A stretch of 64,000 bases of DNA from Escherichia phage UE-S5a. The translations under genes were made by a program, and so were the position numbers. This document shows positions 1 to 28,869 of the stretch, in pieces. The first letter of the stretch is position 1. Each line of letters opens with the position of its first letter. The DNA lies in sequence record PP175015.1. One strand, given 5' to 3'. A model generated the notes under the pieces. That model saw only the letters and a program-made list of their open reading frames with translations, had not been told where the DNA came from and did not search any database.

Positions 1-59
1 GTGTACATAAGGATATATTCGGCAAGGACGCCATTAACCAGAAAAACAAAGAGGTTCTT

Positions 60-2414
60 ATGAACGAAATGTTCTCACAAGGTGGTAAAGGCTCCACTGG
101 TATTCTTACCAACAAACAAGCCATTGCCCGTAAGTTTGGTGTTAAGCAGAATGAGGTTGTTTACTTTGCTGTAGGTGTAGACTTAGGGGAATACAAGGTC
201 ATTTATGATAAGACTACCCAGCGAGCTTACTCATTACCTGCAGACCTTGGTTCAGGGGTTACTGCTGTAAGCCTTAATACTGCCGGTGTGTTAGTTCACT
301 CTACTGGTAATGTTGACCTGGGTGCACTAGCTGTTTCACGAGGAGAGTTTATAACAGTCCCTGGGTCCTTCTCTTTGGGTTATGAGATTAAAGTAAAGAA
401 TGAATGTCTTGAATACCAGGGTGGGTTGTATCGATGGGATGGCGCACTGCCAAAGGTTGTAGATGCTGGGTCTGTTCCTGATATTGGTACAGGAAAGTGG
501 CTGAGCGTCGGTGATGCAGCCCTGCGCAGCCAGATTTCAGACCCGGATGGTGCGTCCAGTTACCCTGAATTGCAGATGGCAAGATGGCGTGATGAGGGTG
601 ATGTTCGAGGCTGGGGTGCTAAAGGGGATGGTGTAACAGATAGTACGGAGAATATAGCTGCTTCACTAAATTCTCAAAAAGCTGTCGTAGCATCAGACGG
701 TGTATTCTCTAGTTCTGGTATTAATAGTAATTACTGTAACTTAGACGGTAGAGGCAGTGGTGTACTAAGTCACCGTTCAAGTACAGGTAACTACTTAGTA
801 TTTAACAATCTACGCTCAGGTCGCTTAAGTAATATTACGGTAGAAAGTAATAAGGCGACCGATACCACTCAAGGGCAGCAGGTATCTCTTGCTGGTGGCA
901 GTGATGTTACTATAAGTGATGTTAATTTCTCAAACGTTAAGGGCGCTGGTTTCAGTTTAATCACATACCCTAATGATGCACCCTCTGATGGGCTTATGAT
1001 TAAAGGCATTCGAGGTAGCTACTCCGGCTATGCTACTAATAAGGCGGCTGGATGCATACATGCTGATTCCTCGGTTAACTCCCTCATAAATAACGTCATT
1101 GCTAAGAACTACCCTCAGTTCGGGGCTGTAGAACTGAAAGGTACAGCCAGTTATAACATAGTCAGCAATGTTATAGGGGCAGACTGCCAGCATGTAACTT
1201 ACAACGGTACAGAAGGGTCAATAGCTCCCTCTAACAACCTTATCAATGGGGTAGTGGCTAATAATCCTAAATATGCAGCGGTTGTTGCAGGCAAAGGTAG
1301 TACCAACTTAATCTCAGATGTGCTTGTAGATTTCTCAATCTCTGACGCTAGTCAGGCTCACGGTGTTACAGTAGAAGGCTCTGATAACGTAATAAGCAAT
1401 GTGCTTATGTCAGGATGTGATGGTACTAACTCTTTAGGGCAAGCTCAAACTGCTACAATTGCGCGCTTTATAGATACAGCTAATAACAACTATGCGTCTG
1501 TATTTCCTAGCTACAGTGCTACAGGTGTTATTACTTTCGAATCAGGTTCTACCCGTAACTTCGTAGAGGTAAAGCATCCGGGAAGGAGAAACGACCTTCT
1601 CAGTGCTACTGGTACTATTGAAGGTGCAGTTACTATTGACGGCACTAGTAATAGCAACGTAGTGCACGCACCTGCCTTAGGACAGTACATAGGTAGTATG
1701 TCAGGTCGGTTCGAATGGCGGATTAAGTCCATGTCACTTCCGTCAGGCGTTCTTACCTCGGCTGATAAATACAGAATGCTTGGGGATGGTGCTGTGTCAT
1801 TAGCTGTAGGCGGGGGTACTTCTTCTCAAGTTCGCCTATTTACTTCTGATGGTACTTCTCGGAAAGTATCACTCACCAACGGTAACGTGCGTCTTCCTAC
1901 CAGTAGCACAGGTTATTTGCAGTTAGGTTCTGATGCAATGACCCCAGATAGTACTAATACATACGCATTAGGTTCCGCAAGTAGAGCATGGTCTGGCGGT
2001 TTTACTCAATCAGCATTCACTGTTGTCTCAGATGCTAGGGATAAAACAGAGCCTCTTAATATCTCAGATGCTTTACTGGATGCTTGGTCTGAAGTTGACT
2101 TTGTGCAGTTTCAGTACTTGGACAGGATTGAGGAGAAGGGTGCAGACTCAGCCAGATGGCACTTTGGTATCATCGCTCAGCGAGCTAAGGAGGCTTTCGA
2201 ACGTCACGGCATAGATGCACATCGCTATGGCTTCCTGTGCTTCGACAGTTGGGATGATGTATATGAGGAAGATGCCAATGGCTCTCGTAAACTGATTACA
2301 CCAGCAGGTTCCCGCTACGGTATTCGTTACGAGGAAGTACTGATATTAGAAGCTGCGTTGATGCGGCGTACTATTAAGCGTATGCAGGAAGCATTAGCTG
2401 TTATGTCTAAGTGA
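60..2414 (+). CDS. Tail fiber/tailspike with C-terminal intramolecular chaperone (peptidase S74-like) domain; reading frame is open upstream to position 3, so the true start may lie outside the window
   Basis: 784-aa ORF; Gly/Ser/Thr/Asn-rich central region typical of beta-helical receptor-binding proteins; C-terminal VVSDARDKTEP...WHFGIIAQRAKEAFERHG matches the self-cleaving chaperone domain of endosialidase-type fibers; RBS AAAGAGG before ATG at 60. Confidence 0.7.
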   Translation: MNEMFSQGGKGSTGILTNKQAIARKFGVKQNEVVYFAVGVDLGEYKVIYDKTTQRAYSLPADLGSGVTAVSLNTAGVLVHSTGNVDLGALAVSRGEFITVPGSFSLGYEIKVKNECLEYQGGLYRWDGALPKVVDAGSVPDIGTGKWLSVGDAALRSQISDPDGASSYPELQMARWRDEGDVRGWGAKGDGVTDSTENIAASLNSQKAVVASDGVFSSSGINSNYCNLDGRGSGVLSHRSSTGNYLVFNNLRSGRLSNITVESNKATDTTQGQQVSLAGGSDVTISDVNFSNVKGAGFSLITYPNDAPSDGLMIKGIRGSYSGYATNKAAGCIHADSSVNSLINNVIAKNYPQFGAVELKGTASYNIVSNVIGADCQHVTYNGTEGSIAPSNNLINGVVANNPKYAAVVAGKGSTNLISDVLVDFSISDASQAHGVTVEGSDNVISNVLMSGCDGTNSLGQAQTATIARFIDTANNNYASVFPSYSATGVITFESGSTRNFVEVKHPGRRNDLLSATGTIEGAVTIDGTSNSNVVHAPALGQYIGSMSGRFEWRIKSMSLPSGVLTSADKYRMLGDGAVSLAVGGGTSSQVRLFTSDGTSRKVSLTNGNVRLPTSSTGYLQLGSDAMTPDSTNTYALGSASRAWSGGFTQSAFTVVSDARDKTEPLNISDALLDAWSEVDFVQFQYLDRIEEKGADSARWHFGIIAQRAKEAFERHGIDAHRYGFLCFDSWDDVYEEDANGSRKLITPAGSRYGIRYEEVLILEAALMRRTIKRMQEALAVMSK

Positions 2415-2492
2415 GTAATACTGGTACGGTTAGATCAGTAGAGTTGGTTAACAGTAGCCTACGTACTACCAGGCTATTACTTATCTAGGTAT

Positions 2493-2521
2493 AAAACCCC
2501 GCTCAGGCGGGGTTTGTTTTT
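2493..2521. terminator. Bidirectional rho-independent terminator between convergent genes
   Basis: ataaaa-CCCCGC-tcag-GCGGGG-tttgttttt: GC stem flanked by A-run and T-run. Confidence 0.6.
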
Positions 2522-2539
2522 ATCTATTAATAATATTTC

Positions 2540-3166
2540 TTATATAGAGTTTACTGTTTGCATTGCCCTAATTGATACTGCTGTTAGGGTAATTACTTGT
2601 CCTGAGATATTAAACATACCTAACTGAATACCGTCTACCATGAAAGGGTCAGTTGAACCAAGTGTGTAAGTAGCCAGTACGTTATCTCTGTTAGCAATGT
2701 CTGTACCCTGTACTTTAACACTAGCATCTGAACCTACTATCGTAATTCCATTGGTTCGTCTTGTTTGTGTTCTCCATTCCCTTGCTGTACCTGCACCACC
2801 TGCAATAATTCCTGATATACGAACACTGAACATTACCTGGGTATTCCTGGTTCTAATGGGGAACTTAAGATTTCCTTCTTCAATTGTTAGTGCTGCTGTA
2901 CCTCCAGGTGATTTAGTTATCCCTGGTAATGAAAAGTAATTGAACCAGGATTGGTCATTTACTGCCTGGCTCCCGGTCCATGTATACAAGTCCAGAAGAA
3001 ATGTGTCTTCTAACTCTGTTGGTGGGAAAGGTAGTAGTTCTGGGGGGATCTCTGAGATGTTATTAGCAGAAACTATTCGTTCCCCATAACTTCCCACGAC
3101 CAACAATCCCCCCTTCATTTTGCACACAACATCCCTACCACTTTGGAAAATATCTTTAATAGACAT
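2540..3166 (-). CDS. Hypothetical protein encoded antisense to the late module
   Basis: Track ORF 2540..3193; start moved to second ATG (MSIKDIF...) preceded by GAGG at 6 nt; no recognisable motif. Confidence 0.45.
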   Translation of the reverse strand: MSIKDIFQSGRDVVCKMKGGLLVVGSYGERIVSANNISEIPPELLPFPPTELEDTFLLDLYTWTGSQAVNDQSWFNYFSLPGITKSPGGTAALTIEEGNLKFPIRTRNTQVMFSVRISGIIAGGAGTAREWRTQTRRTNGITIVGSDASVKVQGTDIANRDNVLATYTLGSTDPFMVDGIQLGMFNISGQVITLTAVSIRAMQTVNSI

Positions 3167-3290
3167 AGTTACCTCGCAGTTGATACCAGACACTATGTCT
3201 GGATGTATCCCATCATACTAAGTATTATCTAAGAGTCATCTTATGATACGACCCTATTGGGGTTCTTAACTTTACAACTACGGTAATATT

Positions 3291-3620
3291 ATGAATGAAT
3301 CGGGCGAACTGCTTCTAGTCAGACTGGAGGAACGATTGAAGACTCTGTTTGAGAATCAGACGAGAGACAGACAGGACCGTGAGAAACTGGAGGAAACTCT
3401 GGGAGAATTACGGGATTCAATCAATGACATAGGCAATAGACTAAAAAATGTGGAGGATAGCTTAGCTAAGAATGAACCTACTATTGAAGAGTTCATCACC
3501 ATTAAGCATAAAGTTGTTGGTGCTGGAATTTTTGGTAAGTGGGTATGGGCTGGAGCAGGTGCAATTATTGGTGTATTGGCTGCTGCAAGACGGGAGATAT
3601 TCGCATGGTTCGCAGGCTAA
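3291..3620 (+). CDS. Coiled-coil protein with C-terminal transmembrane helix (holin/antiholin-associated candidate)
   Basis: 109 aa; charged coiled-coil N-terminus, C-terminal VVGAGIFGKWVWAGAGAIIGVLAAA; sits at head of lysis cassette. Confidence 0.45.
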   Translation: MNESGELLLVRLEERLKTLFENQTRDRQDREKLEETLGELRDSINDIGNRLKNVEDSLAKNEPTIEEFITIKHKVVGAGIFGKWVWAGAGAIIGVLAAARREIFAWFAG

Positions 3621-8864: not shown

Positions 8865-10067
8865 ATGTTAAACTATAACGCTCCAATTGACGGTCAGAAA
8901 TCTAGCATTGATGGTGCTGGTTCCGATCAGATGAATACCTTTTACTGGCTGAAGAAAGCTATTATTCAGTCTCGTAAAGACCAGTACTTCATGCCACTGG
9001 CTAACACCATTAACATGCCTAAGAACTATGGTAAGACTGTTAAGGTGTATGAGTACGTTCCACTGCTCGACGATAAGAACATTAACGACCAGGGCATTGA
9101 TGCTAATGGTGCTACCATCGTTAATGGTAACCTGTATGGTTCTTCTAAAGACGTAGGTAACATCACTTCCAAACTGCCTCTGCTGACAGAGAATGGTGGT
9201 CGTGTTAACCGTGTAGGCTTTACCCGTCTGTCTCGTGAAGGCTCCATCCATAAGTTCGGTTTCTTCTACGAATTTACCCAAGAGTCCCTGGACTTTGATT
9301 CTGATGATCAACTGAAAGAACACCTGTCTCGCGAACTGATGAACGGTGCTGTACAGTTGACTGAAGCTGTTCTCCAGAAAGACCTGCTTGCTGCTGCTGG
9401 TACTGTATTGTATGCAGGTGCTGCTACTTCTGATGCTACCATCACCGGTGAAGGTTCTACTCCGTCTGTAGTTTCTTATAAGAACCTGATGCGTCTTGAC
9501 CAGATTCTTACTGAGAACCGTACCCCGACTCAGACTACTATTATCACTGGTTCTAAACTGACTGATACCAAAGTACTTGGTGGTACTCGTGTAATGTACG
9601 TTGGTTCTGAATTGGTTCCAGAACTGAAAGCGATGAAAGATCTGTTCGGTAACAAAGCATTCATCGAAATTCAGCACTATGCTGATGCCGGTACTCTGAT
9701 GAATGGTGAAGTTGGTTGTATCGACAAGTTCCGTATTATCCAGGTTCCTGAGATGCTGCATTGGGCAGGTGCTGGTGCTCAGGCTACTTCTAACCCAGGC
9801 TATCGTTCTACTATGGTTGGTGGTCAGGAACACTACGACGTATTCCCGATGCTGGTAGTTGGTGATGACTCCTTCTCTACCATTGGCTTCCAGACTGATG
9901 GTAAGTCTGTTAAGTTCTCCATCATGACTAAGATGCCTGGTAAAGAAACTGCTGACCGTAATGACCCGTATGGTGAAACTGGCTTCAGTTCTATCAAGTG
10001 GTACTACGGTATCCTGGTTAAACGCCCAGAACGTCTGGCTATGATTAAGACTGTTGCTCCTCTGTAA
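8865..10067 (+). CDS. Major capsid protein (N4 gp56-like)
   Basis: 400 aa; high-usage codons; followed by a strong terminator; position matches N4 MCP. Confidence 0.75.
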
Positions 10068-16810: not shown

Positions 16811-16873
16811 TACACTGGCTTACTGTAGAGTAAGCTTTCCATATACGATATAAGTTTGAACAGGAAACATGCT

Positions 16874-19800
16874 ATGTCAACATTTGACCGTCTGGCAGGT
16901 TTCGCAGACAGCATCACTAATGCTAAGCAAGTCGATGTCTCTACTGCAACCTCTCAGAAGCAAGCTGCACAAGGGCAAAGCCCTTTCCAATTAACCCCAG
17001 AGAATGCTTACAATCTCCAAACTGGTCGTGTAGGTAATCTTGGAATCGGTGCATTCGAACCAGGTTCACTTCAGGCAGATTTCACTCAAGCCTCCCCATT
17101 AGAAATTCTTAATAAATACGGTAATGAGCAAGGTCTACAGATTCTTAATAGCCGGGCTAATGCTGCTGATGCTGTACGTCAGGACTTATCTAAACAACGT
17201 ACTAACGCAGAAGCATTTGGTGATACTCTTTCTGGTGTTGGTCTTGGTGTTGCTAATACCCTTGGGGGCATTGCTGCTCTTGGCACAGGTCTGGTCAATG
17301 ATAATGCCGGGGCATCCATTGCTTCCGGTATGGATTGGCTGAATGAAGGGGTACACAATCTACAGTCTGATGCTCTGAATGCTACCCGTAAGGTTGTTCA
17401 GAATCAGAACCAGATTTCTGCACAAAAGAACCAGAGACTCTACGAAGAAGATATTAAAAATGGTGAGAACGATTTAGTTGCCTCCCTGTCTCGTATTGGT
17501 CGTGATGCTTTTGATTCTGTTGCTAATACACTTAATAATGGTATGGCTGCTACTGATGGGCTGAGTGAAGGTGTTGGTTCTCTCTTTACCGGTGGTCCAT
17601 TAATTCGTGGTGTATCTGCACTCGGTAAAGTAATGGTAGGTGGTGATAAAGCTGTTAAGGGTATTACCTTAGCTGCTGAGTTAGGTTCACGTCCTGCACA
17701 GGTTGCATTGTCTGCTGGTCGTGTTGCTGCACCTGCTATTGCAATTGGTGGTATGGAAGCTGGTGGTGCATACCAACAGACTGCTTCCGAAATCATGAAG
17801 ATGTCCCATCAAGAATTGGCAAGTAAGTCTCCTGTTTATCAACAGCATATCGCTGATGGTTTATCTCCTGATGAAGCACGTCGCCAAACTGCATCTGAAA
17901 CGGGTATCATTGCTGCTGGCTTAACTGCTCCGGTTGCTGCTGCTACTGGTCCTCTGGTATCCAAATTTGAACTTAACCCACTTAAGGTAGGTTCGCTGGC
18001 TGGTGCTGGTTCTAACATGCTACGTGAAACAGTAGAAGAAGGTATTCAGTCTGGTACAAGTCAGTTTGCACAGAACAAGGCAATTCAGGGTAATGTAGAT
18101 GCTAAGCGTGATTTGCTTAAAGGTGTCGGTGAGCAAGCAGGTCTTGGTGCACTCTACGGCTTCGGTAGTGCTGGTGTTGCTCAGGCTCCAGGTACAACTG
18201 TTAAAGCTGTTGGTGCTTCTGCTGGGCCTGCTTTACGTACTACTCTGGCTGGTGCTTCTCTGGTTGGTAGTGCATTAGCAAAAGCTGCCTCTCCTATTAC
18301 TAACATCCTGGTTCAGCGTGGCGAAGAAGTTGCTAAGCGTAATGAACAAGCTTCCCCTGTATCTGATGCTACGGTTAATGCTGCTGCACAAGAAGCTACT
18401 GCTCAAGCAGAACAAGCACAAGCAACTGTACAAGAAGCAGTAGATGCAATGGATATTTCTCCTGAAGATAAAGCTGCTGCTACTCAGTATGCTGCTGACT
18501 TAACTCAGGCAATGAAATTTGACCCAGTAGAACTGGAACAAGCTAACCCAGCAATCCGTGAAGCTGTTTCTGGTTCCACTAACCGTGTTGAAGCTATTCA
18601 GAAGATGGCTGACCTGGTTAATACTGCCGAAGACCCTAACGTTCAAATGGAAGCTGCAATCCAGATGTATGACAACATCATGTCTATGGATAGCTTCATT
18701 AACCGTGATCCTGGTGCTTTAGCTAATCTGGAACAGGGTTCTCCTGCTGCTAATATTGTTGACCAGTTCTCCGGCCTGATGGCTAACGTTCAGAATACAC
18801 CAAAGGTACTTCGTGCATTCCGTGCCATCCATTCTATGATTCAGGAACAGGCTGAAGCAGGTAAACTGAAAGCTACCGAAGAAGCTAACCAAGCCCAAGC
18901 AAACAACATTGCTATGGCTGCTGATATGTCTCCAGAAGTACTGGATGCAGACTCAGTGAACATGGTTCTGAAACATGCAAGTGAAGGTAAGATTACACTG
19001 GGGAATCGTCAGCGTGCTGCCCTGCAATCTGCTGCTGCTCTATTGCAAGGAGCACGAGAATTTGACGCTAAAGCAGAAGAACTAGGCTTACGTCCTCAAG
19101 ACATTGTTAGTAAACAGATTAAAACCGACGAGTCTCGTTCTAATGAAGGTCAGTACTCTGCGTTGCAACATGCTAAACGCATTCGTTCTGCGTACAACTC
19201 TGGTAACTTCGATTTGGCTTCCGCTTACCTCGACGACTTTATGAAGTTCGCCCAGCACATGCAGAATAAGGTCGGAGCGTTGAATGAGCATCTGATTTCT
19301 GGGAATGCGGATAAGAATAAGTCTGTCCATTATCAGGCTCTTACTCCCTCCCGTGAATGGGTACGTAGTCGTACTGGTCTTGGTGTTAATCCGTATGATA
19401 CCAAGTCGGTTAAGTTTGCCCAGCAAGTAGGACTGGAGGCCAAAACCGTAGCTGATATTGCTAACGCACTTGCTACGGCTTACCCGGAGCTTAATGTTTC
19501 TCATGTGAAGGTTACTCCATTAGATTCACGTCTGGACAAGCCTGCTGCCCAGGTAGTTAAAGAGTTCCGTCAAGGTGGTCTTGATGCCACTCAGTCTCAA
19601 CAGACCAATGAACCAGTGAATCAGGTTGATGAAACTCCTGCACCAGCGCAAGAGACTACTACTACTGTACAGCCTAAAGCTAAACCAGTGGTAGAAAATA
19701 AGACTGTTCCTGTTAAAGAGGCTAGTTCAAAAGCAGAAGAAGTCTCTACTACTAAGTCTGAAACAGTAGATGCTACCCTCACCAATGAGGATACCACTCA

Positions 19801-22800
19801 AAAAGTAGCTGAAACTAAAACGGAAATGGAAACAGTTTTCCCTGTCTATAACAATGACAAGACACCGAACCAGTTCCTGAAATCATTTACCCTGCCGGAA
19901 GAACCTAAGTCTCGCACCATTGGTTCTGAATCCCCTTTGACTGATATTAAGCAAGCACTGTCTTCTACTGCACGCTTTGAAGCATTCACTCAAAAAGAAA
20001 ATAACGCTCTCACAAGTGATGTGATTAAGCGTTATCAGGACTTAATGGGCTTTGGTGAAACTCTGAAGACTACTCTGTCTGATCGTCTGGCTAAGTTTCT
20101 TGCTAATAAGAACGTTGGTAAACGCTTTGCAGAAGGCACAGAGGCTAACCGTTGGGTAGGTGGTAAGTTACTTAATATCGTAGAGAAAGACGGAGACACC
20201 TTTAAGTTCAATGACCAGTTGTTAGAGACTGCTGTACTTGCTGGTCTGCAATGGCGACTGACTGCTACACAGAATGCTGCTGTTAAAGACATGAAAGATG
20301 TAGCTGCTATTACTGGAGTAGAAGCATCCTTGTTACCTGAAGGTATCCTGGCTGAATTTGAGAATGCTCAGACTCTGGTTGAAGCTACTAACTCACTGGC
20401 TCAAAAGATTGAATCTTACTGGGGATTGAATCGTAATCCTAATGCACCACTGGGTTATACCAAAGGTATTCCAATGGCAATGGCTACAGAGATTCTGTCT
20501 TCTCTCATTGAGATGGGTGAAGTTAAAGAGTCTATGCTTGATGTGTCTGAGATTGACCCAGACTCTAATAAGACCGTCGGTCTGTATACCATTGAGAAGC
20601 TGGATGATAACGATGCCATTAACAAGTTCCCTACTGCTATCGAGGAAGCTGTTCTCGTAGAACCAGAAGAGAAAATGTACTTTGGTGATGATATTCCTTC
20701 CGTGGCTCAAACTCAGTTACGTAACCCTGCTGTTAAGAATACCCCAGAGCAGAAAGCTGCTCTTAAAGCAGAACAGGCTACCGAGTTCCGTGTACACATG
20801 CCGATGGTTAACTTCTATGAAGCATTAGGTCGTGACAACATTCTGGAACTGATGGGTGCTGGTACTCTTAATCCTGAACTGCTGAACGTGAACACTGCTA
20901 AGTCACTGGAGGGTAAAAACCTGTCAGTGTCTATGGCATATGATTCCCTGTTCGGTGTAATCAACCAGTTACAGGAACAGGAGAATGGTCTGGATACGCC
21001 TATTCACTATGGTTACAACATGACCCGTGTAGGTCGTATGCAGATGTTAGGTAAGAACAACCCACAGTCCAGCAAGCTGGTTCGTGAAGCAATTCTGCCA
21101 ACCTTCTCTACTATCGACTTAAGTAATGAAAACAGTCAGACGTTCTCTGATTTCCAGTTAGGTCTGTCTCAGGCATTAGGTATCAAGGTTCATAATATGT
21201 CCCGTGAAGCTATGTCTGAAAAACTGACCAAAGCTCTGGAAGGTAATTTGAAACCTGCTGTTGATATGATGGTTGAGTTTGATAAGTCCGGGCACTTACC
21301 AGCCGATGCAGTAGATATTCTTAAGACATCTCTGGGTGGTGATAAATCATTCGTAGCTCTTATGGCTCTTATGGAGTATGCCCGTTACCTGAACAGTGAT
21401 GACCGTGCCAACTTTAATACCCCACTGTACGTTGAAGCCGATGGTGTAACCAACGGACCAATCAACGCAATGGTATTAATGACTGGTGGTAAGTTCACTT
21501 CAGACTGGATTAAGAATACTGCTAAAGGTGGTCTGTTCTTCGGTAAAGCTGGTAAGACTATGAATGAACATCGTTCACAGGATGACAGTGTTGACCTGTA
21601 TGAAGCATCTACCAATGGTCTGCAACAAGCACTTAATGAGTTACGTACTACTTACCGTAACAACGTTCCGGTTATGAACCAAATGAATCATCTTCAGAAG
21701 TTAATGGACCTGTTTATTAAAGACTTTAACCTGAATGAAGACGGTACTCTGGACCTGAAACGTGGTATCGCTAAAAACCCACTGACCATTACCATCTATG
21801 GTTCAGGTGCTCGTGGTATTGCTGGCAAGATGGTTAGTGCAATTACTGACACCATCTATGAACGATTCAGTGATGTTCTGCAAGCTCGTGCTGCTGACCC
21901 TAGCATTTCCCCAGCTATGGCAATGTTTGGTAAGGAGGCTGCGTCTGAGGCTGATGCTCAGGCTATGCTGGATACTTTCCTTACTTCTATGGAAGCACTG
22001 ACTGGTAATGTTCCAGTTATGCGTAAAGGTGAATTGTCTATTCAACAGGTAGAAGGTGCTCTGACTGGTAAGTTAGACCCTCAGAAGTTTACCGTATCGG
22101 GTAATGCCCTGAAGAACTTACAAGAGAACATGCTTCACCTGTTCGTTGAACCAATGCGTACTGGTATCCGGAATACTGTTGGGGAAGGTCTGATGCATTC
22201 TACTGAGAACTTGCAGAAGGCTACCCAGATTCAGTCTTTGGTTCTACAAGACATGTTCCAACAAGCAGTACAGGCTAAGCTGGCAGAAAAAGAAAAAGAC
22301 CCAACCTGGAAGAAGGGTGATTTCTTAACACAGAAAGAACTGAATGAAATTCAGGAATCATTGTCTCCACTGGCTCCAATGATTGAGACTGGTTCACAGA
22401 CTTTCTATATTGCTGGTAGTGAGAATACTGATGTTGCTAACCAGGTACTGGCTACCAACTTAGATGACCGTATGCGTGTGCCAATGAGCATCTATGCTCC
22501 TTCTCAGGCAGGCGTTGCAGGTATTCCATTTATGACCATTGGCACTGGTGATGGCATGATGATGCAGACCCTTTCTACTATGAAAGGTGCTCCGAAGAAT
22601 ACCCTGAAAATCTTTGATGGTATGAACATTGGTATCGACAACATCACTGATGCAAGTCGTAAAGCTAACGAGGCTGTATACACTTCCTGGCAGGGTAACC
22701 CTATCAAGAATGTTTATGAGTCTTTTACTAAGTTCATGAAGAACGTAGACTTCAGCAAACTATCGGATGAAACCAAACAGGCTATCGCTAAATCTGCTCT

Positions 22801-25800
22801 GGAATATGACCAGCGTGAAGGTGCTACCGATGACCTGTTACGTGTTGGTGCTGAACAGATTGAACGTAACCTGCGTAATATTGCTCTGGGTGTAGATATT
22901 CGTCACAAAGTAATGAACCAGGTACAGACTACTGTTGACCAGATGGCTGCTGTTGGTGCTCCTTATGTGAACAACGGTAAAATCTCTCTGGAAGGTCTGA
23001 CCGTAGACCAACAAGTAGCTAAGCTAAATGAACTGTTCGATGCTGAATTAAACAAACGTCGTGATGCAGTACGTGCTGCTAAAGTAGAACCAGTGAAAGA
23101 AGTGCCAGCAATGGAACAGGTTGGTCGTGTACTGAAGTCTGGTGTACGCCTACTGTCTAATACTGCTATCTCTAAGCTGGCTAAAGAGATGTCTCCGGAA
23201 CAGCAAGCAGTACTGAAAGAAGTACAGAAATCCCTTGCTGCTAAAGACTATAAGGTTGTTTACGGTACACCTTCCCAACTGGATGCTTATGCTATTGAGA
23301 AGAATATTACTCGCCCAGCACCAGAAGATATTGAAGCTGCTGAAGCTGGTAATGCGTATGGTTGGACTAACTTTGAAGATAAGACCATCTACTTAGTTAC
23401 CCCTTCCTTAGAGACTCTGGTTCATGAATTGGTGCATGCTTCTACTTTTGAATCTGTACTGGCTCACTATGAGGGTACTCCTAATGAAGCGGTCCAGAAC
23501 ATTGAAGACCTGATGAACCAGTTCCGTGCTCTGGATGTTAAGGATGAATCCCCGGCAGTTCGGGAAGCATATGCAGATGCTCTTAATACTATTAACGGTC
23601 ATTTATCTAATGGCTTTATTGAGCCAGCAATGGCTAAAGCTGCTGCACTGAATGAGTACATGGCATGGGGTTTAACCAACCGTGAACTGATTAGTAAGCA
23701 GAAGAAAACCACTGCACTTAAGACTATGGTTCAGGCTGTATATGAAGCAATTAAACGTCTGGTATTCGGGCGTAAGAAAGCACCAGCTAATGCAGATGAT
23801 ATGTTCTCTGGCTTACTGTTTAACTCGTCCGTAGTTATGCGTGGGCAAGCTCCTACTGCTGCTGTAGCCAAAGATACTACTCTGTTCCATAACAAAACGT
23901 ATGGTGACAATACTCGTCTGGAAGAGCTAGGGAAAACCTTCGATAAACTGATTACTGACTACATTGGTTCTGAACCAGTACAGCAAGTAATTCGTAAAGG
24001 TAAGTTCTCTGATGCAGTGGTTAATGCGACTAAAGTAACTCGTGATGTTCAGGCTCATGGCTTCACTATGAATATGCAGGAACAACGTCTCTTTACTAAC
24101 ATTGTTGCTGCTCTGGCTACTGAGGCTGCTATTAATCCTGCTGCTCTGGCTCGTGCGCAGGAATACTACACACATGTTACTAAGAACCTGACCGTTGAGT
24201 CATTCATGGCTGACCCAGATAGTACTAACCCTGCTGACCGTTACTATGCACAGCAGAAGTTCGATACCATCATGGGTGCTAACAACATTGAGTTTGATTC
24301 ACAAGGTCGTTCCTCCTTACTGCCTACCTTTATTGGTCTGGCGATGGTAAGTGAAGAGGTACGTAAAGTGCTGGCTGATATTCCAGTTATGAAAGTAGAC
24401 AAGAAATCTGGCAATACCGCTGATGCAATGCTGACTAACATCGGTACTGCTGCAATGGCTAGTCTGAATGCTCGTGTAGCAGGAGATACTAAAGCTACCA
24501 ACGTACAGGAAGGTATGGATGCACTGGCTCAGACAATCATGCAGACCAGTCTTAATGCACAATCCTTCTATGATTCCGTTGCTACTCCTACGGGTAATGC
24601 TATTGATCGTGCTAACCAGTATCTGGTGGACTCTATTGATGTACTGTCTACCCGTGCTTTAGAAGGTGCTCGTGAAGTTGCAGCTAATACCAAGAACCCG
24701 TTGGTTAAAGGTGCTGCCCATGCTGCACAATTAATAGCTGCTATTGCTACAGAGAAGAATGGTGCAATCGTAGCCGAAGGTGTTATGGCTGCAATGAACC
24801 AAGGTAAAGTATGGCAACCCTTTCACGATCTGGTTAATGACTTAACTGGTCGTACTAAGAGTAATGCTTCTGTATATGATTTGATTAAGGCAGTGCGTGC
24901 CCAGGTACAGGCTGACCGTCAACAGTTCCGTGAACATCTGCCCACCACTATCGCATCTAAGTTCAGCCGTAAGCTGACTAATGATGAGTGGAAAGCAATG
25001 CATACCGGTATGGGTAAAACCGACTTAGCTGTTCTGCGTGACACTATGTCTCTGGGTGAAATTCGTGACTTGCTGACTGACCAAAAGATTGTTGACCGTG
25101 AAGTGAATAAGCTGGAAGCAGATTTGCAGAAACAAGCAGGACGTAACTGGCCTTTGATTAGCCGTAAATCTAAGCAACTGGCTCAGTACATGATTAATGG
25201 CACAGTTGGTAATAACTTGCTGCGTAATGCTACTGCAATCTCTCGTATGCTGGGTGAACGACAGGCTGCACGTTCTACTGTAGACGTAGCTCAACTGGAT
25301 AAACTGATTACTCTGTATGCACTGGAAGCAATGAGTAAGACTGACCGTGAGATGTTATCTTCACTGGCTCAATCAGAAGCTGATGGGATTGATTTTGCTA
25401 CTTCTTATCTGGTTGGACAGCGTAAAGATGAAATGGCTAAAGCCAAATCTGACATGCGTGCAACCCTGAACCAGTACAAAGGGTATATTCCTGGTGAGAC
25501 TAAACAGGGTGTTAACTTGATTGTTGCTGAAGATAGTCAGTTTGCTGATTTGATTGAGAAGTCCTATGTACGTCTGGGTACTTATCAGGGTAGCTCTGCT
25601 AATCGTGGTCCAGCACGTAGCTACTACTTTGCACCGGTACAGGCACAGGCTCCATTCTCGCAAGGTATCTTACAGAACGTTCGCAATACTGCTGGTGGTG
25701 TAGACCTTGGTACAGGCTTTACGATGGGTACAATGGTAGCTGGTCGTATCACTGACAAGCCTTCTGTAGACCGTATCACTAAAGCACTGGCTCGCGGTGA

Positions 25801-27226
25801 ACGTGGTAATGAACCACTGCTGCCTGTATATGATGATAAAGGCAATGTGGTTGCTTATGAGCAATCTATTGACCCTAACATGCTGAAGCACATTGAGGGT
25901 GAGAACCATCTCGCTCGTGCAATCGGTGTATGGCGTGGTCGTCAGGTAGAGGAAGCTAAGGCTCAGCGTTTCAACGATATGCTGATTGAGAACCTGCATA
26001 GCATGTATAAAAACGACATTAAAATGTCTGCCTCTAACAAGTCACAGTACGTTAACCTTCTTGGTTCTAAACTGGACCCAGTAACTGCTGATGCCCTTAA
26101 GCTGATGAACAGTGAAACTCGTCAGAAAGCAGAAAGTCTGTTTGGTCCTGGTGAGTTGTGGGTACGTCGTGACATGCTGAATGATGCACTGGGCTATCGT
26201 GCAGCTTCCGTAGGTGATGCCTGGTCTGGCAATTCTCGTTGGTCACCAGAAACACTGGATACCTTCAAGAAAGCTATGTTGGGTGTATTCGGCAACCGTG
26301 CTTATAAGTATGTAATGGGTGGTGAGAACCTGGTTCAAAACTTAGTTAAAGAAGCTAAGACTCTGATTGTAGTTAAATCAGTAGTTGTTCCTGCTGTTAA
26401 CTTCCTGGCTAACCTTTACCAGATGGTTGGTCGTGGTGTACCTGTTAAGAACATTGCTAAGAGCATTCCACAGAAGACTGCTGAGATTAACCAGTACCTG
26501 AAATCTCGTCTGCGTCAGGTAGATGCAGAAGCAGAATTACGTGCAGCTACTAACCCGAACCAGATTCGTAAGCTTAAGGCTGAAATTCAGTCCATCACTG
26601 ATAGTCATAAGCGTATGAGTATCTGGCCTCTGTTAGAAGCTGGTGAGTTTTCTTCAATTGCAGATGCTGGTATTGGACGAGATGACATCCTGATTACTGA
26701 AGGTAAACTTCACGAATACATGGATAAACTGGTTGATAAGTTACCTAAGTCTGTACGTAATGCTGGACGTTATGCCCTTATCACCAAGGATACTGCTTTA
26801 TTCCAGGGTATCCAGAAGACGGTTGAGTACTCTGACTTTATTGCTAAAGCAATCATCTATGATGATTTGACTCAGCGTAAAGGTAAGACTCGTGAAGAAG
26901 CACTTGGACGTGTAACGGAAGAGTTCATTAACTATGACCGTCTGCCTGGTCGCTTCCGTGGGTATATGGAAAGTGTTGGTCTTATGTGGTTCTATAACTT
27001 TAAGATTCGTTCTGCAAAAATTGCAGTATCCATGATTCGTAACAACCCGGTACACGCAGCTATGGCTATGTTGGCTCCAACTCCTACCATGTTTGGTAAT
27101 GTTGGTTTACCTATTCAGGACAACATCTTCAGTATTGCTGCACAAGGCAATCTCGGTTACTCCTGGGGCTTCGGTCAGGGACTTCGTGCCCATAACCTTA
27201 ACCCTTGGCTCAATCTAGCTAACTAA
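16874..27226 (+). CDS. Virion-encapsidated RNA polymerase (vRNAP), N4 gp50-like
   Basis: About 3450 aa (track ORF starts on TTG at 16856; ATG at 16874 has AGGAAA RBS); central region carries T7-like polymerase motifs: PLYVEADGVTNGP (motif A-like), RGIAKNPLTITIYGSGARG (motif B, R..K..YG), IFDGMNIG (motif C). Confidence 0.9.
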   Translation: MSTFDRLAGFADSITNAKQVDVSTATSQKQAAQGQSPFQLTPENAYNLQTGRVGNLGIGAFEPGSLQADFTQASPLEILNKYGNEQGLQILNSRANAADAVRQDLSKQRTNAEAFGDTLSGVGLGVANTLGGIAALGTGLVNDNAGASIASGMDWLNEGVHNLQSDALNATRKVVQNQNQISAQKNQRLYEEDIKNGENDLVASLSRIGRDAFDSVANTLNNGMAATDGLSEGVGSLFTGGPLIRGVSALGKVMVGGDKAVKGITLAAELGSRPAQVALSAGRVAAPAIAIGGMEAGGAYQQTASEIMKMSHQELASKSPVYQQHIADGLSPDEARRQTASETGIIAAGLTAPVAAATGPLVSKFELNPLKVGSLAGAGSNMLRETVEEGIQSGTSQFAQNKAIQGNVDAKRDLLKGVGEQAGLGALYGFGSAGVAQAPGTTVKAVGASAGPALRTTLAGASLVGSALAKAASPITNILVQRGEEVAKRNEQASPVSDATVNAAAQEATAQAEQAQATVQEAVDAMDISPEDKAAATQYAADLTQAMKFDPVELEQANPAIREAVSGSTNRVEAIQKMADLVNTAEDPNVQMEAAIQMYDNIMSMDSFINRDPGALANLEQGSPAANIVDQFSGLMANVQNTPKVLRAFRAIHSMIQEQAEAGKLKATEEANQAQANNIAMAADMSPEVLDADSVNMVLKHASEGKITLGNRQRAALQSAAALLQGAREFDAKAEELGLRPQDIVSKQIKTDESRSNEGQYSALQHAKRIRSAYNSGNFDLASAYLDDFMKFAQHMQNKVGALNEHLISGNADKNKSVHYQALTPSREWVRSRTGLGVNPYDTKSVKFAQQVGLEAKTVADIANALATAYPELNVSHVKVTPLDSRLDKPAAQVVKEFRQGGLDATQSQQTNEPVNQVDETPAPAQETTTTVQPKAKPVVENKTVPVKEASSKAEEVSTTKSETVDATLTNEDTTQKVAETKTEMETVFPVYNNDKTPNQFLKSFTLPEEPKSRTIGSESPLTDIKQALSSTARFEAFTQKENNALTSDVIKRYQDLMGFGETLKTTLSDRLAKFLANKNVGKRFAEGTEANRWVGGKLLNIVEKDGDTFKFNDQLLETAVLAGLQWRLTATQNAAVKDMKDVAAITGVEASLLPEGILAEFENAQTLVEATNSLAQKIESYWGLNRNPNAPLGYTKGIPMAMATEILSSLIEMGEVKESMLDVSEIDPDSNKTVGLYTIEKLDDNDAINKFPTAIEEAVLVEPEEKMYFGDDIPSVAQTQLRNPAVKNTPEQKAALKAEQATEFRVHMPMVNFYEALGRDNILELMGAGTLNPELLNVNTAKSLEGKNLSVSMAYDSLFGVINQLQEQENGLDTPIHYGYNMTRVGRMQMLGKNNPQSSKLVREAILPTFSTIDLSNENSQTFSDFQLGLSQALGIKVHNMSREAMSEKLTKALEGNLKPAVDMMVEFDKSGHLPADAVDILKTSLGGDKSFVALMALMEYARYLNSDDRANFNTPLYVEADGVTNGPINAMVLMTGGKFTSDWIKNTAKGGLFFGKAGKTMNEHRSQDDSVDLYEASTNGLQQALNELRTTYRNNVPVMNQMNHLQKLMDLFIKDFNLNEDGTLDLKRGIAKNPLTITIYGSGARGIAGKMVSAITDTIYERFSDVLQARAADPSISPAMAMFGKEAASEADAQAMLDTFLTSMEALTGNVPVMRKGELSIQQVEGALTGKLDPQKFTVSGNALKNLQENMLHLFVEPMRTGIRNTVGEGLMHSTENLQKATQIQSLVLQDMFQQAVQAKLAEKEKDPTWKKGDFLTQKELNEIQESLSPLAPMIETGSQTFYIAGSENTDVANQVLATNLDDRMRVPMSIYAPSQAGVAGIPFMTIGTGDGMMMQTLSTMKGAPKNTLKIFDGMNIGIDNITDASRKANEAVYTSWQGNPIKNVYESFTKFMKNVDFSKLSDETKQAIAKSALEYDQREGATDDLLRVGAEQIERNLRNIALGVDIRHKVMNQVQTTVDQMAAVGAPYVNNGKISLEGLTVDQQVAKLNELFDAELNKRRDAVRAAKVEPVKEVPAMEQVGRVLKSGVRLLSNTAISKLAKEMSPEQQAVLKEVQKSLAAKDYKVVYGTPSQLDAYAIEKNITRPAPEDIEAAEAGNAYGWTNFEDKTIYLVTPSLETLVHELVHASTFESVLAHYEGTPNEAVQNIEDLMNQFRALDVKDESPAVREAYADALNTINGHLSNGFIEPAMAKAAALNEYMAWGLTNRELISKQKKTTALKTMVQAVYEAIKRLVFGRKKAPANADDMFSGLLFNSSVVMRGQAPTAAVAKDTTLFHNKTYGDNTRLEELGKTFDKLITDYIGSEPVQQVIRKGKFSDAVVNATKVTRDVQAHGFTMNMQEQRLFTNIVAALATEAAINPAALARAQEYYTHVTKNLTVESFMADPDSTNPADRYYAQQKFDTIMGANNIEFDSQGRSSLLPTFIGLAMVSEEVRKVLADIPVMKVDKKSGNTADAMLTNIGTAAMASLNARVAGDTKATNVQEGMDALAQTIMQTSLNAQSFYDSVATPTGNAIDRANQYLVDSIDVLSTRALEGAREVAANTKNPLVKGAAHAAQLIAAIATEKNGAIVAEGVMAAMNQGKVWQPFHDLVNDLTGRTKSNASVYDLIKAVRAQVQADRQQFREHLPTTIASKFSRKLTNDEWKAMHTGMGKTDLAVLRDTMSLGEIRDLLTDQKIVDREVNKLEADLQKQAGRNWPLISRKSKQLAQYMINGTVGNNLLRNATAISRMLGERQAARSTVDVAQLDKLITLYALEAMSKTDREMLSSLAQSEADGIDFATSYLVGQRKDEMAKAKSDMRATLNQYKGYIPGETKQGVNLIVAEDSQFADLIEKSYVRLGTYQGSSANRGPARSYYFAPVQAQAPFSQGILQNVRNTAGGVDLGTGFTMGTMVAGRITDKPSVDRITKALARGERGNEPLLPVYDDKGNVVAYEQSIDPNMLKHIEGENHLARAIGVWRGRQVEEAKAQRFNDMLIENLHSMYKNDIKMSASNKSQYVNLLGSKLDPVTADALKLMNSETRQKAESLFGPGELWVRRDMLNDALGYRAASVGDAWSGNSRWSPETLDTFKKAMLGVFGNRAYKYVMGGENLVQNLVKEAKTLIVVKSVVVPAVNFLANLYQMVGRGVPVKNIAKSIPQKTAEINQYLKSRLRQVDAEAELRAATNPNQIRKLKAEIQSITDSHKRMSIWPLLEAGEFSSIADAGIGRDDILITEGKLHEYMDKLVDKLPKSVRNAGRYALITKDTALFQGIQKTVEYSDFIAKAIIYDDLTQRKGKTREEALGRVTEEFINYDRLPGRFRGYMESVGLMWFYNFKIRSAKIAVSMIRNNPVHAAMAMLAPTPTMFGNVGLPIQDNIFSIAAQGNLGYSWGFGQGLRAHNLNPWLNLAN

Positions 27227-28472: not shown

Positions 28473-28713
28473 TACTATTTACCCATAGCTGGGAGGCTTT
28501 TGGTTCTTACCACGAAGACAGTCCACGCTGACTAGACTTGGGATTGATAGTCCCGTTCCTGTGGTAATTACTCAGGCTAGGATTTAAGGAGTTCCTATTC
28601 TCCAGCGAAATTCCCGTCGAGGGGAATAACAATACAATAGCAGTCACTGGACTGTCTTACCAGTGTTGTCTTTAGAGTGCGATGCAATCAGGACTATGTT
28701 ACTGCTGAATGGG

Positions 28714-28787
28714 TGTCCACTACTGGATTTGAACCAGTGACTTTCCGATTATTAGTCGGTTGCTTTCCCCGTCTAAGCTAAGCGGAC
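28714..28787 (-). tRNA. tRNA; anticodon loop reads CUAAUAA, i.e. anticodon AAU (formally Ile, unusual A34)
   Basis: Hand fold: acceptor GTCCGCT/AGTGGAC (one G-U), D-stem GCTT/AAGC, anticodon stem CCGA/TCGG, T-arm ACTGG-TTCAAAT-CCAGT; no encoded CCA. Confidence 0.55.
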
Positions 28788-28793
28788 ATAATA

Positions 28794-28869
28794 TGGTTAC
28801 CCGGACAGGATTCGAACCTGCGTCCTAGTTGGTTTACTAGTGGGGCTTTACCACTAAGCCTACCGGGTA
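28794..28869 (-). tRNA. tRNA with encoded CCA; anticodon arm non-canonical by hand fold (identity unresolved)
   Basis: Perfect acceptor TACCCGG/CCGGGTA, discriminator A, CCA encoded; D-stem GGCT/AGCC; T-arm GCAGG-TTCGAAT-CCTGT; anticodon region folds as CTAGT/ACTAG with a 6-nt loop. Confidence 0.5.

What the first reader, a model, noticed from the sequence alone, without database searches (positions are those of the whole stretch)
60..2414. Tail fiber with C-terminal intramolecular chaperone; gene may begin upstream of the window
The C-terminal SD...K chaperone-type domain implies autoproteolytic maturation of a trimeric beta-helical receptor-binding protein, whose central domain likely sets host specificity (possible glycan depolymerase). 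The frame is open to the window edge, so the start is uncertain.
Basis: partly seen in the sequence, partly recalled or inferred. Interest (0 to 1): 0.4.

Follow-up and report, generated by a model that had tools for sequence, protein, structure and literature searches.

The report
K5 capsule lyase tailspike, N4-like phage
This gene encodes a phage tailspike that cuts the K5 (heparosan) capsule of E. coli and carries a self-cleaving C-terminal folding domain; it is real and correctly read, but it is already annotated and published, so it is ordinary.

Summary
The ORF at 60-2414 (+) is real: 784 aa, ATG start, TGA stop. The window is 100% identical to Escherichia phage UE-M3 (PP301342.1, N4-like Gamaleyavirus), where this gene is already annotated 'K5 lyase' and was reported among the virion-associated proteins (Virol J 2025).

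- **Chaperone domain:** Peptidase_S74 matches aa 657-717 (E 4.7e-14). Ser657 and Lys662 align with the Ser and Lys of solved chaperone domains.
- **Catalytic part:** aa 184-657 are about 93% identical to the crystallised K5 heparosan lyase KflA (2X3H), whose deposited chain ends at the aligned Ser.
- **N-terminus:** aa 1-160 are the docking module of G7C gp63.1, CBA120 TSP1 and B2 gp48.
- **Start codon:** the gene does not start upstream. An in-frame TAA lies 16 nt before the window, ATG60 is the first start codon after it, and a Shine-Dalgarno sequence precedes it.
- **Mosaic origin:** an N4-like backbone runs to nt 460. A K5 lyase cassette shared with T7-like Kayfunavirus phages covers nt 497-2430 (93.7% identity).

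The only mildly new point is context. The adjacent upstream gene is a complete K1 endosialidase on a gp66-like N-terminus. This N4-like phage therefore probably carries a branched K1/K5 two-enzyme fibre, as the SP6-like phage K1-5 does on a different chassis.

The parts
48..54 (+). Shine-Dalgarno-like AAAGAGG, 5 nt upstream of the start codon
   Evidence: Read directly from the sequence.
60..2414 (+). Complete CDS of the K5 lyase tailspike precursor: 784 aa, 82.9 kDa, ATG start, TGA stop at 2412-2414. It equals UEM3_011 / WWE95501.1 of phage UE-M3.
   Evidence: An in-frame TAA lies upstream of the window.
60..344 (+). N-terminal docking (particle-binding) domain, aa 1 to about 95. It is shared with G7C gp63.1, CBA120 TSP1 and B2 gp48.
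   Evidence: PDB 4OJ5 E=1.8e-71, 9D84 E=4e-60, 4QNL E=8e-59, all aligned from residue 1. It is 98.5% identical at the DNA level to sister Gamaleyavirus PBM-3 up to nt 460.
330..515 (+). Second N-terminal domain, aa 91-152 (Pfam Tail_spike_N, TSP1/Gp66 type)
   Evidence: PF18668 E=8e-12, 45.5 bits against a 25-bit cut-off.
461..496 (+). Left recombination junction (aa about 134-146). N4-like backbone homology ends at 460 and homology to T7-like K5 tailspikes begins at 497.
   Evidence: Pairwise blastn against PBM-3 and IME177; megablast hit boundaries.
609..2030 (+). Mature catalytic part, aa 184-657: K5 heparosan lyase beta-helix plus the C-terminal intertwined stalk. It is co-linear, without gaps, with the crystallised KflA chain.
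   Evidence: 2X3H E=3.7e-278, query 184-657 against chain 69-542. Identity is 92-95% to KflA, K1-5 gp46 and IME177. The fold description comes from PMC8822698.
1131..1202 (+). Stretch holding E358, K360 and Y381, which correspond to KflA E206, K208 and Y229 (offset +152), the presumed active-site residues
   Evidence: All three are invariant in the 4-sequence alignment and their identities were checked. Their catalytic role is recalled from Thompson et al. 2010 (JBC 285:23963), which could not be read here.
2028..2045 (+). Autoproteolytic site S657-D-A-R-D-K662 (Ser/Lys pair of the chaperone domain)
   Evidence: It aligns with SDERHK of GA-1 gp12 (3GUD), SDARKK of 6EU4 and ANGERK of the endoNF construct 3GW6. 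The 2X3H chain ends at the aligned Ser.
2031..2411 (+). C-terminal intramolecular chaperone domain, aa 658-784, 14.7 kDa, predicted to be released after trimer folding
   Evidence: Peptidase_S74; 3GUD E=2e-23, 3GW6 E=6e-21, 4UW8 E=6e-10; 100% identical to IME177 and 95% to KflA over this part.
2431..2535 (.). Right recombination junction. Homology to Kayfunavirus ends at 2430 and homology to Gamaleyavirus Bp4 resumes at 2536.
2494..2523 (.). Intrinsic terminator hairpin AAACCCCGC-TCAG-GCGGGGTTT followed by GTTTTTAT. An A-run lies on its other side, so it can serve both convergent genes.

Best explanation
The gene encodes the precursor of a homotrimeric tailspike of the N4-like coliphage UE-M3. 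Its enzymatic part is a K5 (heparosan) capsule lyase.

Proposed mechanism:
1. Three 83-kDa chains assemble from the C-terminus. The chaperone domains (aa 658-784) trimerise and nucleate folding of the intertwined C-terminal stalk and the beta-helix.
2. Once the trimer is correctly folded, the Ser657/Lys662 pair cuts the chain at Ser657. This releases a 14.7-kDa fragment and leaves a kinetically stable 68-kDa x3 spike.
3. The N-terminal domains (aa 1 to about 150) dock the spike onto the N-terminal region of the neighbouring gp66-type protein. In this phage that protein is a K1 endosialidase, and it is the one fixed to the tail, so the result is a branched fibre.
4. [quoted passage not shown] This lets the virion tunnel through the capsule to the outer membrane.

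Shown here: the ORF and its true start, domain homologies, conservation of the Ser/Lys pair and of the presumed lyase residues, the mosaic junctions, and the adjacent partner gene. Taken from the literature: the protein is among the virion-associated proteins reported by proteomics. Inferred: self-cleavage, lyase activity and K5 specificity of this particular protein, and docking onto the endosialidase.
For: - **Identity of the locus:** 100% identical over the first 8,000 bases of the window to PP301342.1, where the CDS is annotated 'K5 lyase'. Endosialidase and K5 lyase are both listed among the phage-particle-associated proteins of all four UE phages (PMC11927229).
- **Lyase part:** 2X3H KflA E=3.7e-278, gap-free over aa 184-657. 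Identity is 92% to KflA and K1-5 gp46 and 95% to Kayfunavirus IME177. E358, K360 and Y381 (KflA E206, K208, Y229) are invariant.
- **Chaperone:** Peptidase_S74 above threshold. Ser657 and Lys662 align with solved chaperone domains, and the KflA crystal chain stops at the aligned Ser. K1-5 gp46 is reported as 67 kDa with a 52 kDa mature form (PMC5380687). A Ser-to-Ala change blocks cleavage in the homologous T5 pb1 domain (PMC4690869).
- **Docking:** aa 1-167 match B2 gp48 (E=4e-60) and G7C gp63.1. The upstream protein's aa 14-374 match B2 gp49 (E=1e-135). B2 gp48 and gp49 were co-purified and solved as a complex (PMC11654681). G7C uses branched fibres made of gp63.1 and gp66 (PMC9569702).
- **Precedent for swapping:** C-terminal module exchange behind a conserved N-terminus is documented for G7C-type gp63.1 and gp66.
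Against: - No enzymatic, cleavage or binding experiment exists for this protein.
- About 5-8% of residues differ from the characterised lyases, including I333-H334 where KflA, K1-5 gp46 and IME177 all have V-L.
- The capsule type of the isolation host (UPEC O25:H4) is not stated in the paper.
- The catalytic roles of E206, K208 and Y229 are recalled, not verified here.
- The side of Ser657 on which the chain is cut is ambiguous by analogy. [quoted passage not shown]
- Docking onto the endosialidase rests on homology to the B2 complex only.
Confidence: 0.88

Rival explanations
1. The spike has the K5 lyase fold but a shifted or lost activity. It would be a binding-only or differently specific receptor-binding protein because of its roughly 5-8% substitutions.
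For: UE-M3 has I333-H334 where all three compared K5 lyases have V-L. The paper reports that the sister phages differ at positions 334 and 385 and also differ in host range. The host capsule type is not reported.
Against: Identity is 92-95% across the whole catalytic part with no indels. The presumed catalytic E, K and Y are invariant. The protein is kept in the virion. The same cassette is maintained at about 92-94% in dozens of T7-like and SP6-like phages.
Confidence: 0.06
2. The spike attaches directly to the tail (adaptor or tube) through its N-terminal domain and is independent of the endosialidase. There would then be two separate sets of spikes rather than a branched fibre.
For: No interaction was tested here. 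In the Moo19 virion, the G7C gp66-like protein gp81 appears as a separate side appendage whose binding partner could not be resolved.
Against: The two N-termini are homologous to B2 gp48 and gp49, which form a co-purifying, solved complex. G7C is described as having branched gp63.1/gp66 fibres.
Confidence: 0.12
3. The gene is the 3' part of a longer gene that begins upstream of the window.
For: Within the window the frame has no stop before ATG60.
Against: An in-frame TAA lies 16 nt upstream of window base 1 in the identical record, and no start codon lies between it and ATG60. A Shine-Dalgarno sequence is present. The previous CDS ends 184 nt upstream. Homologues align from residue 1.
Confidence: 0.01
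4. The C-terminal domain is retained in the mature spike as a structural or receptor-binding tip and is not cleaved.
For: Cleavage was not observed for this protein. The PDB entry 9VVR lists the full 843-aa sequence, chaperone included, but a deposited sequence does not show what is ordered in the model.
Against: The Ser/Lys pair is conserved. The KflA crystal chain ends at the aligned Ser. K1-5 gp46 matures from 67 to 52 kDa.
Confidence: 0.04

Closest known systems
KflA, K5 lyase of coliphage K5A (Y10025.2; PDB 2X3H), and gp46 of phage K1-5 (AAG59821.1)
   Same: The catalytic beta-helix, C-terminal stalk and chaperone domain are 92-95% identical and gap-free. E, K and Y at KflA positions 206, 208 and 229 are conserved. 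The SDAR-K cleavage motif sits at the same place.
   Different: KflA and gp46 have only a roughly 30-aa N-terminal peptide for binding an SP6-type adaptor. UE-M3 instead has a roughly 180-aa two-domain N4/Kuttervirus-type docking module. DNA homology starts only at window nt 636-644.
843-aa K5 tailspike of T7-like Kayfunavirus phages (IME177 QYC97309.1; PDB 9VVR)
   Same: This is the closest cassette: 93.7% DNA identity over window 497-2430, running 16 nt past the stop codon. The chaperone domain is 100% identical. The Tail_spike_N-like domain and neck are also shared (56-87% identity).
   Different: Its first roughly 150 aa are an unrelated N-terminus, only 22% identical to the UE-M3 N-terminal domain. 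From my own knowledge I take it to be a T7 gp17-type tail-attachment domain; this was not tested here.
G7C gp63.1 (PDB 4QNL), B2 gp48 (9D84) and CBA120 TSP1 (4OJ5): branched tailspikes
   Same: The N-terminal 160-200 aa are homologous from residue 1 (E from 1e-59 to 1e-71). The gene position is the same, next to a gp66-type partner in an N4-like genome.
   Different: The enzymatic parts are unrelated: an SGNH esterase in G7C and B2, and other glycanases in CBA120. Those spikes show no Peptidase_S74 match in this comparison.
Endosialidase endoNF of phage K1F and its C-terminal intramolecular chaperone (PDB 3GW6); GA-1 gp12 (3GUD); T5 pb1 (4UW8)
   Same: Same chaperone family (Peptidase_S74), with the Ser and the Lys five residues downstream aligned.
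   Different: The upstream mature parts are different: sialidase beta-propeller, neck appendage and fibre tip, respectively.
Dual-specificity phage K1-5 (K5 lyase gp46 plus K1 endosialidase gp47)
   Same: Same pair of capsule enzymes encoded side by side.
   Different: [quoted passage not shown] UE-M3 is a Schitoviridae phage, and there the lyase probably docks on the endosialidase itself. Gene order is also reversed.

Membership tests
Peptidase_S74 / C-terminal intramolecular chaperone domain (CIMCD) of phage spikes and fibres | Profile match above the curated threshold at the C-terminus | tested here: met
   PF13884 E=4.7e-14, 52.9 bits against a 22-bit cut-off, aa 657-717 covering profile positions 1-57 of 58.
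Peptidase_S74 / C-terminal intramolecular chaperone domain (CIMCD) of phage spikes and fibres | Conserved cleavage-site Ser with a Lys five residues downstream | tested here: met
   S657 and K662 align with the S and K of 3GUD (SDERHK) and 6EU4 (SDARKK), and with A and K of 3GW6 (ANGERK). From my own knowledge 3GW6 is the Ser-to-Ala cleavage mutant of endoNF. That these two residues form the catalytic dyad is also from my own knowledge; only the Ser's role was read here, for T5 pb1.
Peptidase_S74 / C-terminal intramolecular chaperone domain (CIMCD) of phage spikes and fibres | Domain follows an intertwined trimeric beta-structure (triple beta-helix or beta-prism) whose folding it assists | tested here: met
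   aa 561-657 are 93-94% identical to the C-terminal part of KflA. [quoted passage not shown] The test is met by near-identity to a solved structure, not by a model made here.
Peptidase_S74 / C-terminal intramolecular chaperone domain (CIMCD) of phage spikes and fibres | Autoproteolytic release of the domain after trimerisation | not testable with these tools
   Only indirect support: the 2X3H chain ends at the aligned Ser, and K1-5 gp46 matures from 67 to 52 kDa. The paper's proteomics tables were not available.
K5 (heparosan) lyase tailspikes, KflA type | Full-length, gap-free homology of the catalytic domain to KflA | tested here: met
   E=3.7e-278 over aa 184-657; 92% identity over aa 184-560.
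K5 (heparosan) lyase tailspikes, KflA type | Active-site residues conserved (KflA Glu206, Lys208, Tyr229, as recalled) | tested here: met
   E358, K360 and Y381 are invariant in all four sequences. Caveat: the residue list is from memory. KflA does have E, K and Y at those positions, but the primary paper could not be read.
K5 (heparosan) lyase tailspikes, KflA type | Beta-eliminative cleavage of heparosan; infection dependent on the K5 capsule | not testable with these tools
G7C-type branched tailspike pair (gp63.1 docked on gp66) | gp63.1-type N-terminal domains starting at residue 1 | tested here: met
   4QNL E=8e-59 over aa 1-160; 9D84 gp48 E=4e-60; Pfam Tail_spike_N.
G7C-type branched tailspike pair (gp63.1 docked on gp66) | Adjacent gene for a gp66-type partner with the matching N-terminal region | tested here: met
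   The upstream 1215-aa protein matches 9D80_D over aa 1-376 (E=4e-148) and B2 gp49 9D83_D over aa 14-374 (E=1e-135).
G7C-type branched tailspike pair (gp63.1 docked on gp66) | Physical complex of the two proteins on the virion | not testable with these tools
   Both proteins are listed in the particle proteome. A complex is shown only for the B2 homologues.
   No such Pfam family matched at E<=1. The beta-helix fold is instead supported through the KflA structure.

The most novel reading that the evidence does not exclude
UE-M3 and its sisters would be N4-like (Schitoviridae) phages with a branched two-enzyme fibre. In this fibre a K5 heparosan lyase is docked on a K1 polysialic-acid endosialidase, giving dual K1/K5 capsule specificity. 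This would be a convergent re-invention, on a different chassis and with a different attachment logic, of what the SP6-like phage K1-5 does. The K5 lyase cassette is shared at 93.7% DNA identity with T7-like Kayfunavirus phages. The endosialidase module is shared at about 90-91% with two large-genome coliphages (YX22, IME392) and at about 83% with K1F-type phages. I found no paper stating this: among the papers listed, only the UE paper holds both enzyme names together with Gamaleyavirus or N4-like terms in a relevant way, and it does not discuss capsules.
Probability: 0.55. Interest if true: 0.4.

Novelty: already known. Interest (0 to 1): 0.15.

Why it matters
As a gene it adds nothing new. 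K5 lyase tailspikes and their self-cleaving chaperone domains are textbook examples, and this exact sequence is deposited, named and published.

Its modest value lies in three points:
- It is a clean, base-resolved example of a receptor-binding cassette moving between unrelated podovirus families. The left junction lies at nt 461-496, at the end of the second N-terminal domain, and the right junction lies in the terminator-containing spacer.
- With the neighbouring endosialidase it suggests an N4-like phage aimed at the two E. coli capsules (K1 and K5) that mimic host glycans. That is relevant for choosing or engineering phages against extraintestinal pathogenic E. coli.
- The conserved N-terminal module marks where a spike could be swapped in N4-like chassis engineering.

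Tried and rejected
- **E. coli genomes:** megablast of window 1-2500 against 5,426 complete E. coli genomes gave no match. There is therefore no prophage or chromosomal copy at about 85% identity or more, and the window is not bacterial.
- **Pfam beta-helix check:** no pectate-lyase or beta-helix family matched at E<=1.
- **Primary papers:** Thompson et al. 2010 on KflA (by DOI and by PMC2911314) and Clarke et al. 2000 (PMC94548) are not held. A text search for Glu206, Lys208 and Tyr229 with KflA found nothing relevant. The catalytic-residue assignment therefore stays a recollection.
- **Proteomics tables:** the supplementary tables of PMC11927229 are not held, so I could not check whether peptides from aa 658-784 are absent from virions.
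- **Promoter:** the scan found no sigma-70-like site on the + strand in the 184-nt spacer upstream of the gene, and fewer sites overall than in shuffles. The promoter is unresolved, and the gene may be co-transcribed with the endosialidase gene.
- **Upstream stem-loop:** I looked for the stem-loop reported between genes 63.1 and 66 in G7C-set phages. No inverted repeat was found in L001 5860-6065.
- **Composition:** the profile shows no GC anomaly across the cassette, 0.43-0.47 against about 0.42-0.46 in the flanks.
- **Not run:** structure prediction and the large protein-database searches were deliberately skipped, because identity of 92% or more to solved structures already settles the fold.
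Full report
**1. The observation**

The + strand ORF at 60-2414 exists as described. It is 784 aa with an ATG start and a TGA stop at 2412-2414. The C-terminal motif is ...FTVVS657-DARD-K662-TEP....

The signals are far above chance:
- Pfam Peptidase_S74 ('chaperone of endosialidase') at aa 657-717, E=4.7e-14, 52.9 bits against a 22-bit cut-off.
- Pfam Tail_spike_N at aa 91-152, E=8e-12.
- PHROG 14895 'tail spike protein', E=0, over aa 150-784.

**2. Where the window comes from, and the true start**

The first 8 kb of the window are 100% identical to Escherichia phage UE-M3 (PP301342.1, Schitoviridae, Gamaleyavirus), starting at record position 9674. In that record the ORF is CDS UEM3_011, 'K5 lyase', with exactly these limits.

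The start codon is settled by four observations:
- The previous gene ends 184 nt upstream.
- Reading the record upstream, the frame closes with TAA 16 nt before window base 1.
- No ATG, GTG or TTG lies between that stop and ATG60.
- AAAGAGG sits at 48-54, 5 nt before the ATG.

In addition, three solved homologues align from their residue 1 to residue 1 of this ORF. The gene is therefore complete in the window.

The window also holds an N4-type virion RNA polymerase (16856-27226; four vRNAP Pfam domains), which fits the taxonomy.

**3. Anatomy of the protein**

| Residues | Part | Evidence |
|---|---|---|
| 1 to about 160-200 | Two-domain N-terminal module of branched tailspikes | CBA120 TSP1 4OJ5 E=1.8e-71; B2 gp48 9D84 E=4e-60; G7C gp63.1 4QNL E=8e-59 |
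| 184-657 | K5 lyase catalytic part and C-terminal stalk | Gap-free alignment to KflA chain 2X3H, E=3.7e-278 |
| 658-784 | Chaperone domain | 3GUD E=2e-23, 3GW6 E=6e-21, 4UW8 E=6e-10 |

Segment identities for the catalytic part are 92% to KflA and K1-5 gp46 and 95% to the Kayfunavirus IME177 spike. [quoted passage not shown]

With the offset query = KflA + 152, the residues I recall as the KflA active site (Glu206, Lys208, Tyr229; Thompson et al. 2010) fall on E358, K360 and Y381. These are E, K and Y in KflA too, and they are invariant in all four aligned sequences. The paper itself could not be read, so their role is a recollection.

In the chaperone domain, Ser657 and Lys662 align with SDERHK of GA-1 gp12, SDARKK of 6EU4 and ANGERK of the endoNF construct 3GW6. 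The deposited KflA chain stops at the aligned Ser. The predicted masses are 82.9 kDa for the precursor, 68.2 kDa for the mature chain and 14.7 kDa for the released fragment.

**4. Mosaic structure**

Pairwise blastn and database megablast give sharp boundaries:

| Compared phage | Region of homology (window nt) | Identity |
|---|---|---|
| PBM-3 (sister Gamaleyavirus) | from 6 kb upstream to 460, then again from 3193 | 98.5% up to nt 460 |
| IME177 and relatives (T7-like Kayfunavirus) | 497-2430, running 16 nt past the stop | 93.7% |
| K1-5 and K5A (SP6-like) | 636-2418 | about 92% |
| Bp4 (Gamaleyavirus) | 40-353, then from 2536 | 81% (40-353), 93% (from 2536) |

The gene is therefore an N4-type docking module joined to a K5 lyase cassette that is shared with T7-like phages. 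The left junction (nt 461-496, aa about 134-146) lies at the end of the second N-terminal domain. The right junction (2431-2535) lies in the spacer that holds a strong hairpin terminator: 2494-2515, AAACCCCGC-TCAG-GCGGGGTTT followed by a T-run.

In the phage collection, this lyase at 90% protein identity or more occurs in about 50 T7-like and SP6-like records. Among N4-like records it appears only in the UE phages listed (UE-M3, UE-M6, UE-S5b). Swapping of the C-terminal part behind a conserved N-terminus is already documented for G7C-type gp63.1 and gp66.

**5. Context and mechanism**

The gene immediately upstream lies outside the window and encodes a 1215-aa protein. It is a complete endosialidase:
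- Pfam End_N_terminal, End_beta_propel (E=4e-205), End_beta_barrel, End_tail_spike and Peptidase_S74 all match.
- PDB 3GVL and 1V0E match with E=0 over aa 396-1061.

Its N-terminal 376 aa match a 1086-aa Schitoviridae tail fibre chain (9D80_D, E=4e-148) and B2 gp49 (9D83_D, E=1e-135). B2 gp48 and gp49 were co-purified and solved as a complex (PMC11654681), and G7C is described as having branched gp63.1/gp66 fibres (PMC9569702).

By homology, the K5 lyase spike most likely hangs on the N-terminal part of the endosialidase. Both proteins are listed among the particle-associated proteins of the UE phages (PMC11927229).

The mechanism I commit to has five steps:
1. C-terminal chaperone-driven trimer folding.
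2. Ser657/Lys662 self-cleavage.
3. Docking of the spike through aa 1 to about 150.
4. Binding of K5 heparosan and beta-eliminative cleavage.
5. Access of the virion to the outer membrane.

The homology and residue conservation are shown here. Cleavage, activity, K5 specificity and docking are inferred.

**6. Comparison with the known, and novelty**

This is a member of the KflA-type K5 lyase spikes and of the Peptidase_S74 chaperone family, and every defining feature that could be tested was met. It differs from KflA and K1-5 gp46 only in its attachment module. The exact sequence is public, correctly named and published, so the finding is already known.

The one point I did not find stated in the literature concerns the enzyme pair. 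This N4-like phage pairs a K1 endosialidase with a K5 lyase, as the unrelated phage K1-5 does, probably as a branched fibre. The UE paper lists both as receptor-binding proteins but does not discuss capsules, and it gives the host only as O25:H4.

**7. Verdict**

Interest is low: an ordinary, well-understood gene in a published genome.

Noticed in passing
L001 2228-5875 (PP301342.1 5901-9548), ending 184 nt upstream of the K5 lyase start; outside the window: The neighbouring gene is a complete K1F-type endosialidase (all four endosialidase Pfam domains plus Peptidase_S74) fused to a gp66/B2-gp49-like N-terminus. UE-M3 therefore encodes K1 and K5 capsule depolymerases side by side on an N4-like chassis. 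DNA relatives of the enzymatic part include two large-genome coliphages (YX22 and IME392, 90-91%) and K1F-type phages (about 83%).
   Followed up: partly
L005 6060-8738 (phage PBM-3, PBM3_11): The protein in the same slot in the sister phage PBM-3 is annotated 'endo-N-acetylneuraminidase'. It has no endosialidase domain, only Tail_spike_N and Peptidase_S74. The name probably comes from the 'chaperone of endosialidase' domain. Its enzymatic part is unidentified; the best PHROG hint is a phosphodiesterase-like family.
   Followed up: partly
window 2540-3193 (-): A convergent 217-aa ORF is annotated 'tail needle knob' in the record. It has no Pfam match, and its only PHROG (17779) has unknown function. 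It is present in Bp4 (93%) but absent from PBM-3, so it lies inside the segment that differs between sister phages.
   Followed up: partly
window 28710-28869 (-): Two adjacent tRNA genes. ARAGORN calls one tRNA-Ile with anticodon AAT and gives the other an undetermined identity with a two-base anticodon call. Rfam tRNA scores are 63 and 40.7 bits.
   Followed up: no
L001 5662-5701 (3' end of the endosialidase gene) versus L004 3429-3468 (IME177, just after its K5 tailspike stop): A 40-nt match at 92.5% identity (E=8e-11). The spacer behind the T7-like K5 tailspike resembles the 3' end of an endosialidase gene. It may be a scar of an endosialidase-to-K5-lyase replacement in Kayfunavirus.
   Followed up: no
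window 1056-1061 (aa 333-334): UE-M3 has Ile-His where KflA, K1-5 gp46 and IME177 all have Val-Leu. The UE paper says the sister phages differ in this protein at positions 334 and 385 and also differ in host range.
   Followed up: no
window 3291-3620 (+): A 109-aa ORF is annotated 'tail needle protein gp26' in UE-M3 (as a shorter CDS, window 3336-3620) and 'tail length tape-measure protein' in Bp4 and PBM-3. Both names look doubtful for a protein this small whose only PHROG matches have unknown function.
   Followed up: no
window 16856-27226 (+): A 3456-aa ORF with four N4 virion RNA polymerase Pfam domains. It is the hallmark gene of Schitoviridae and confirms the type of genome.
   Followed up: partly
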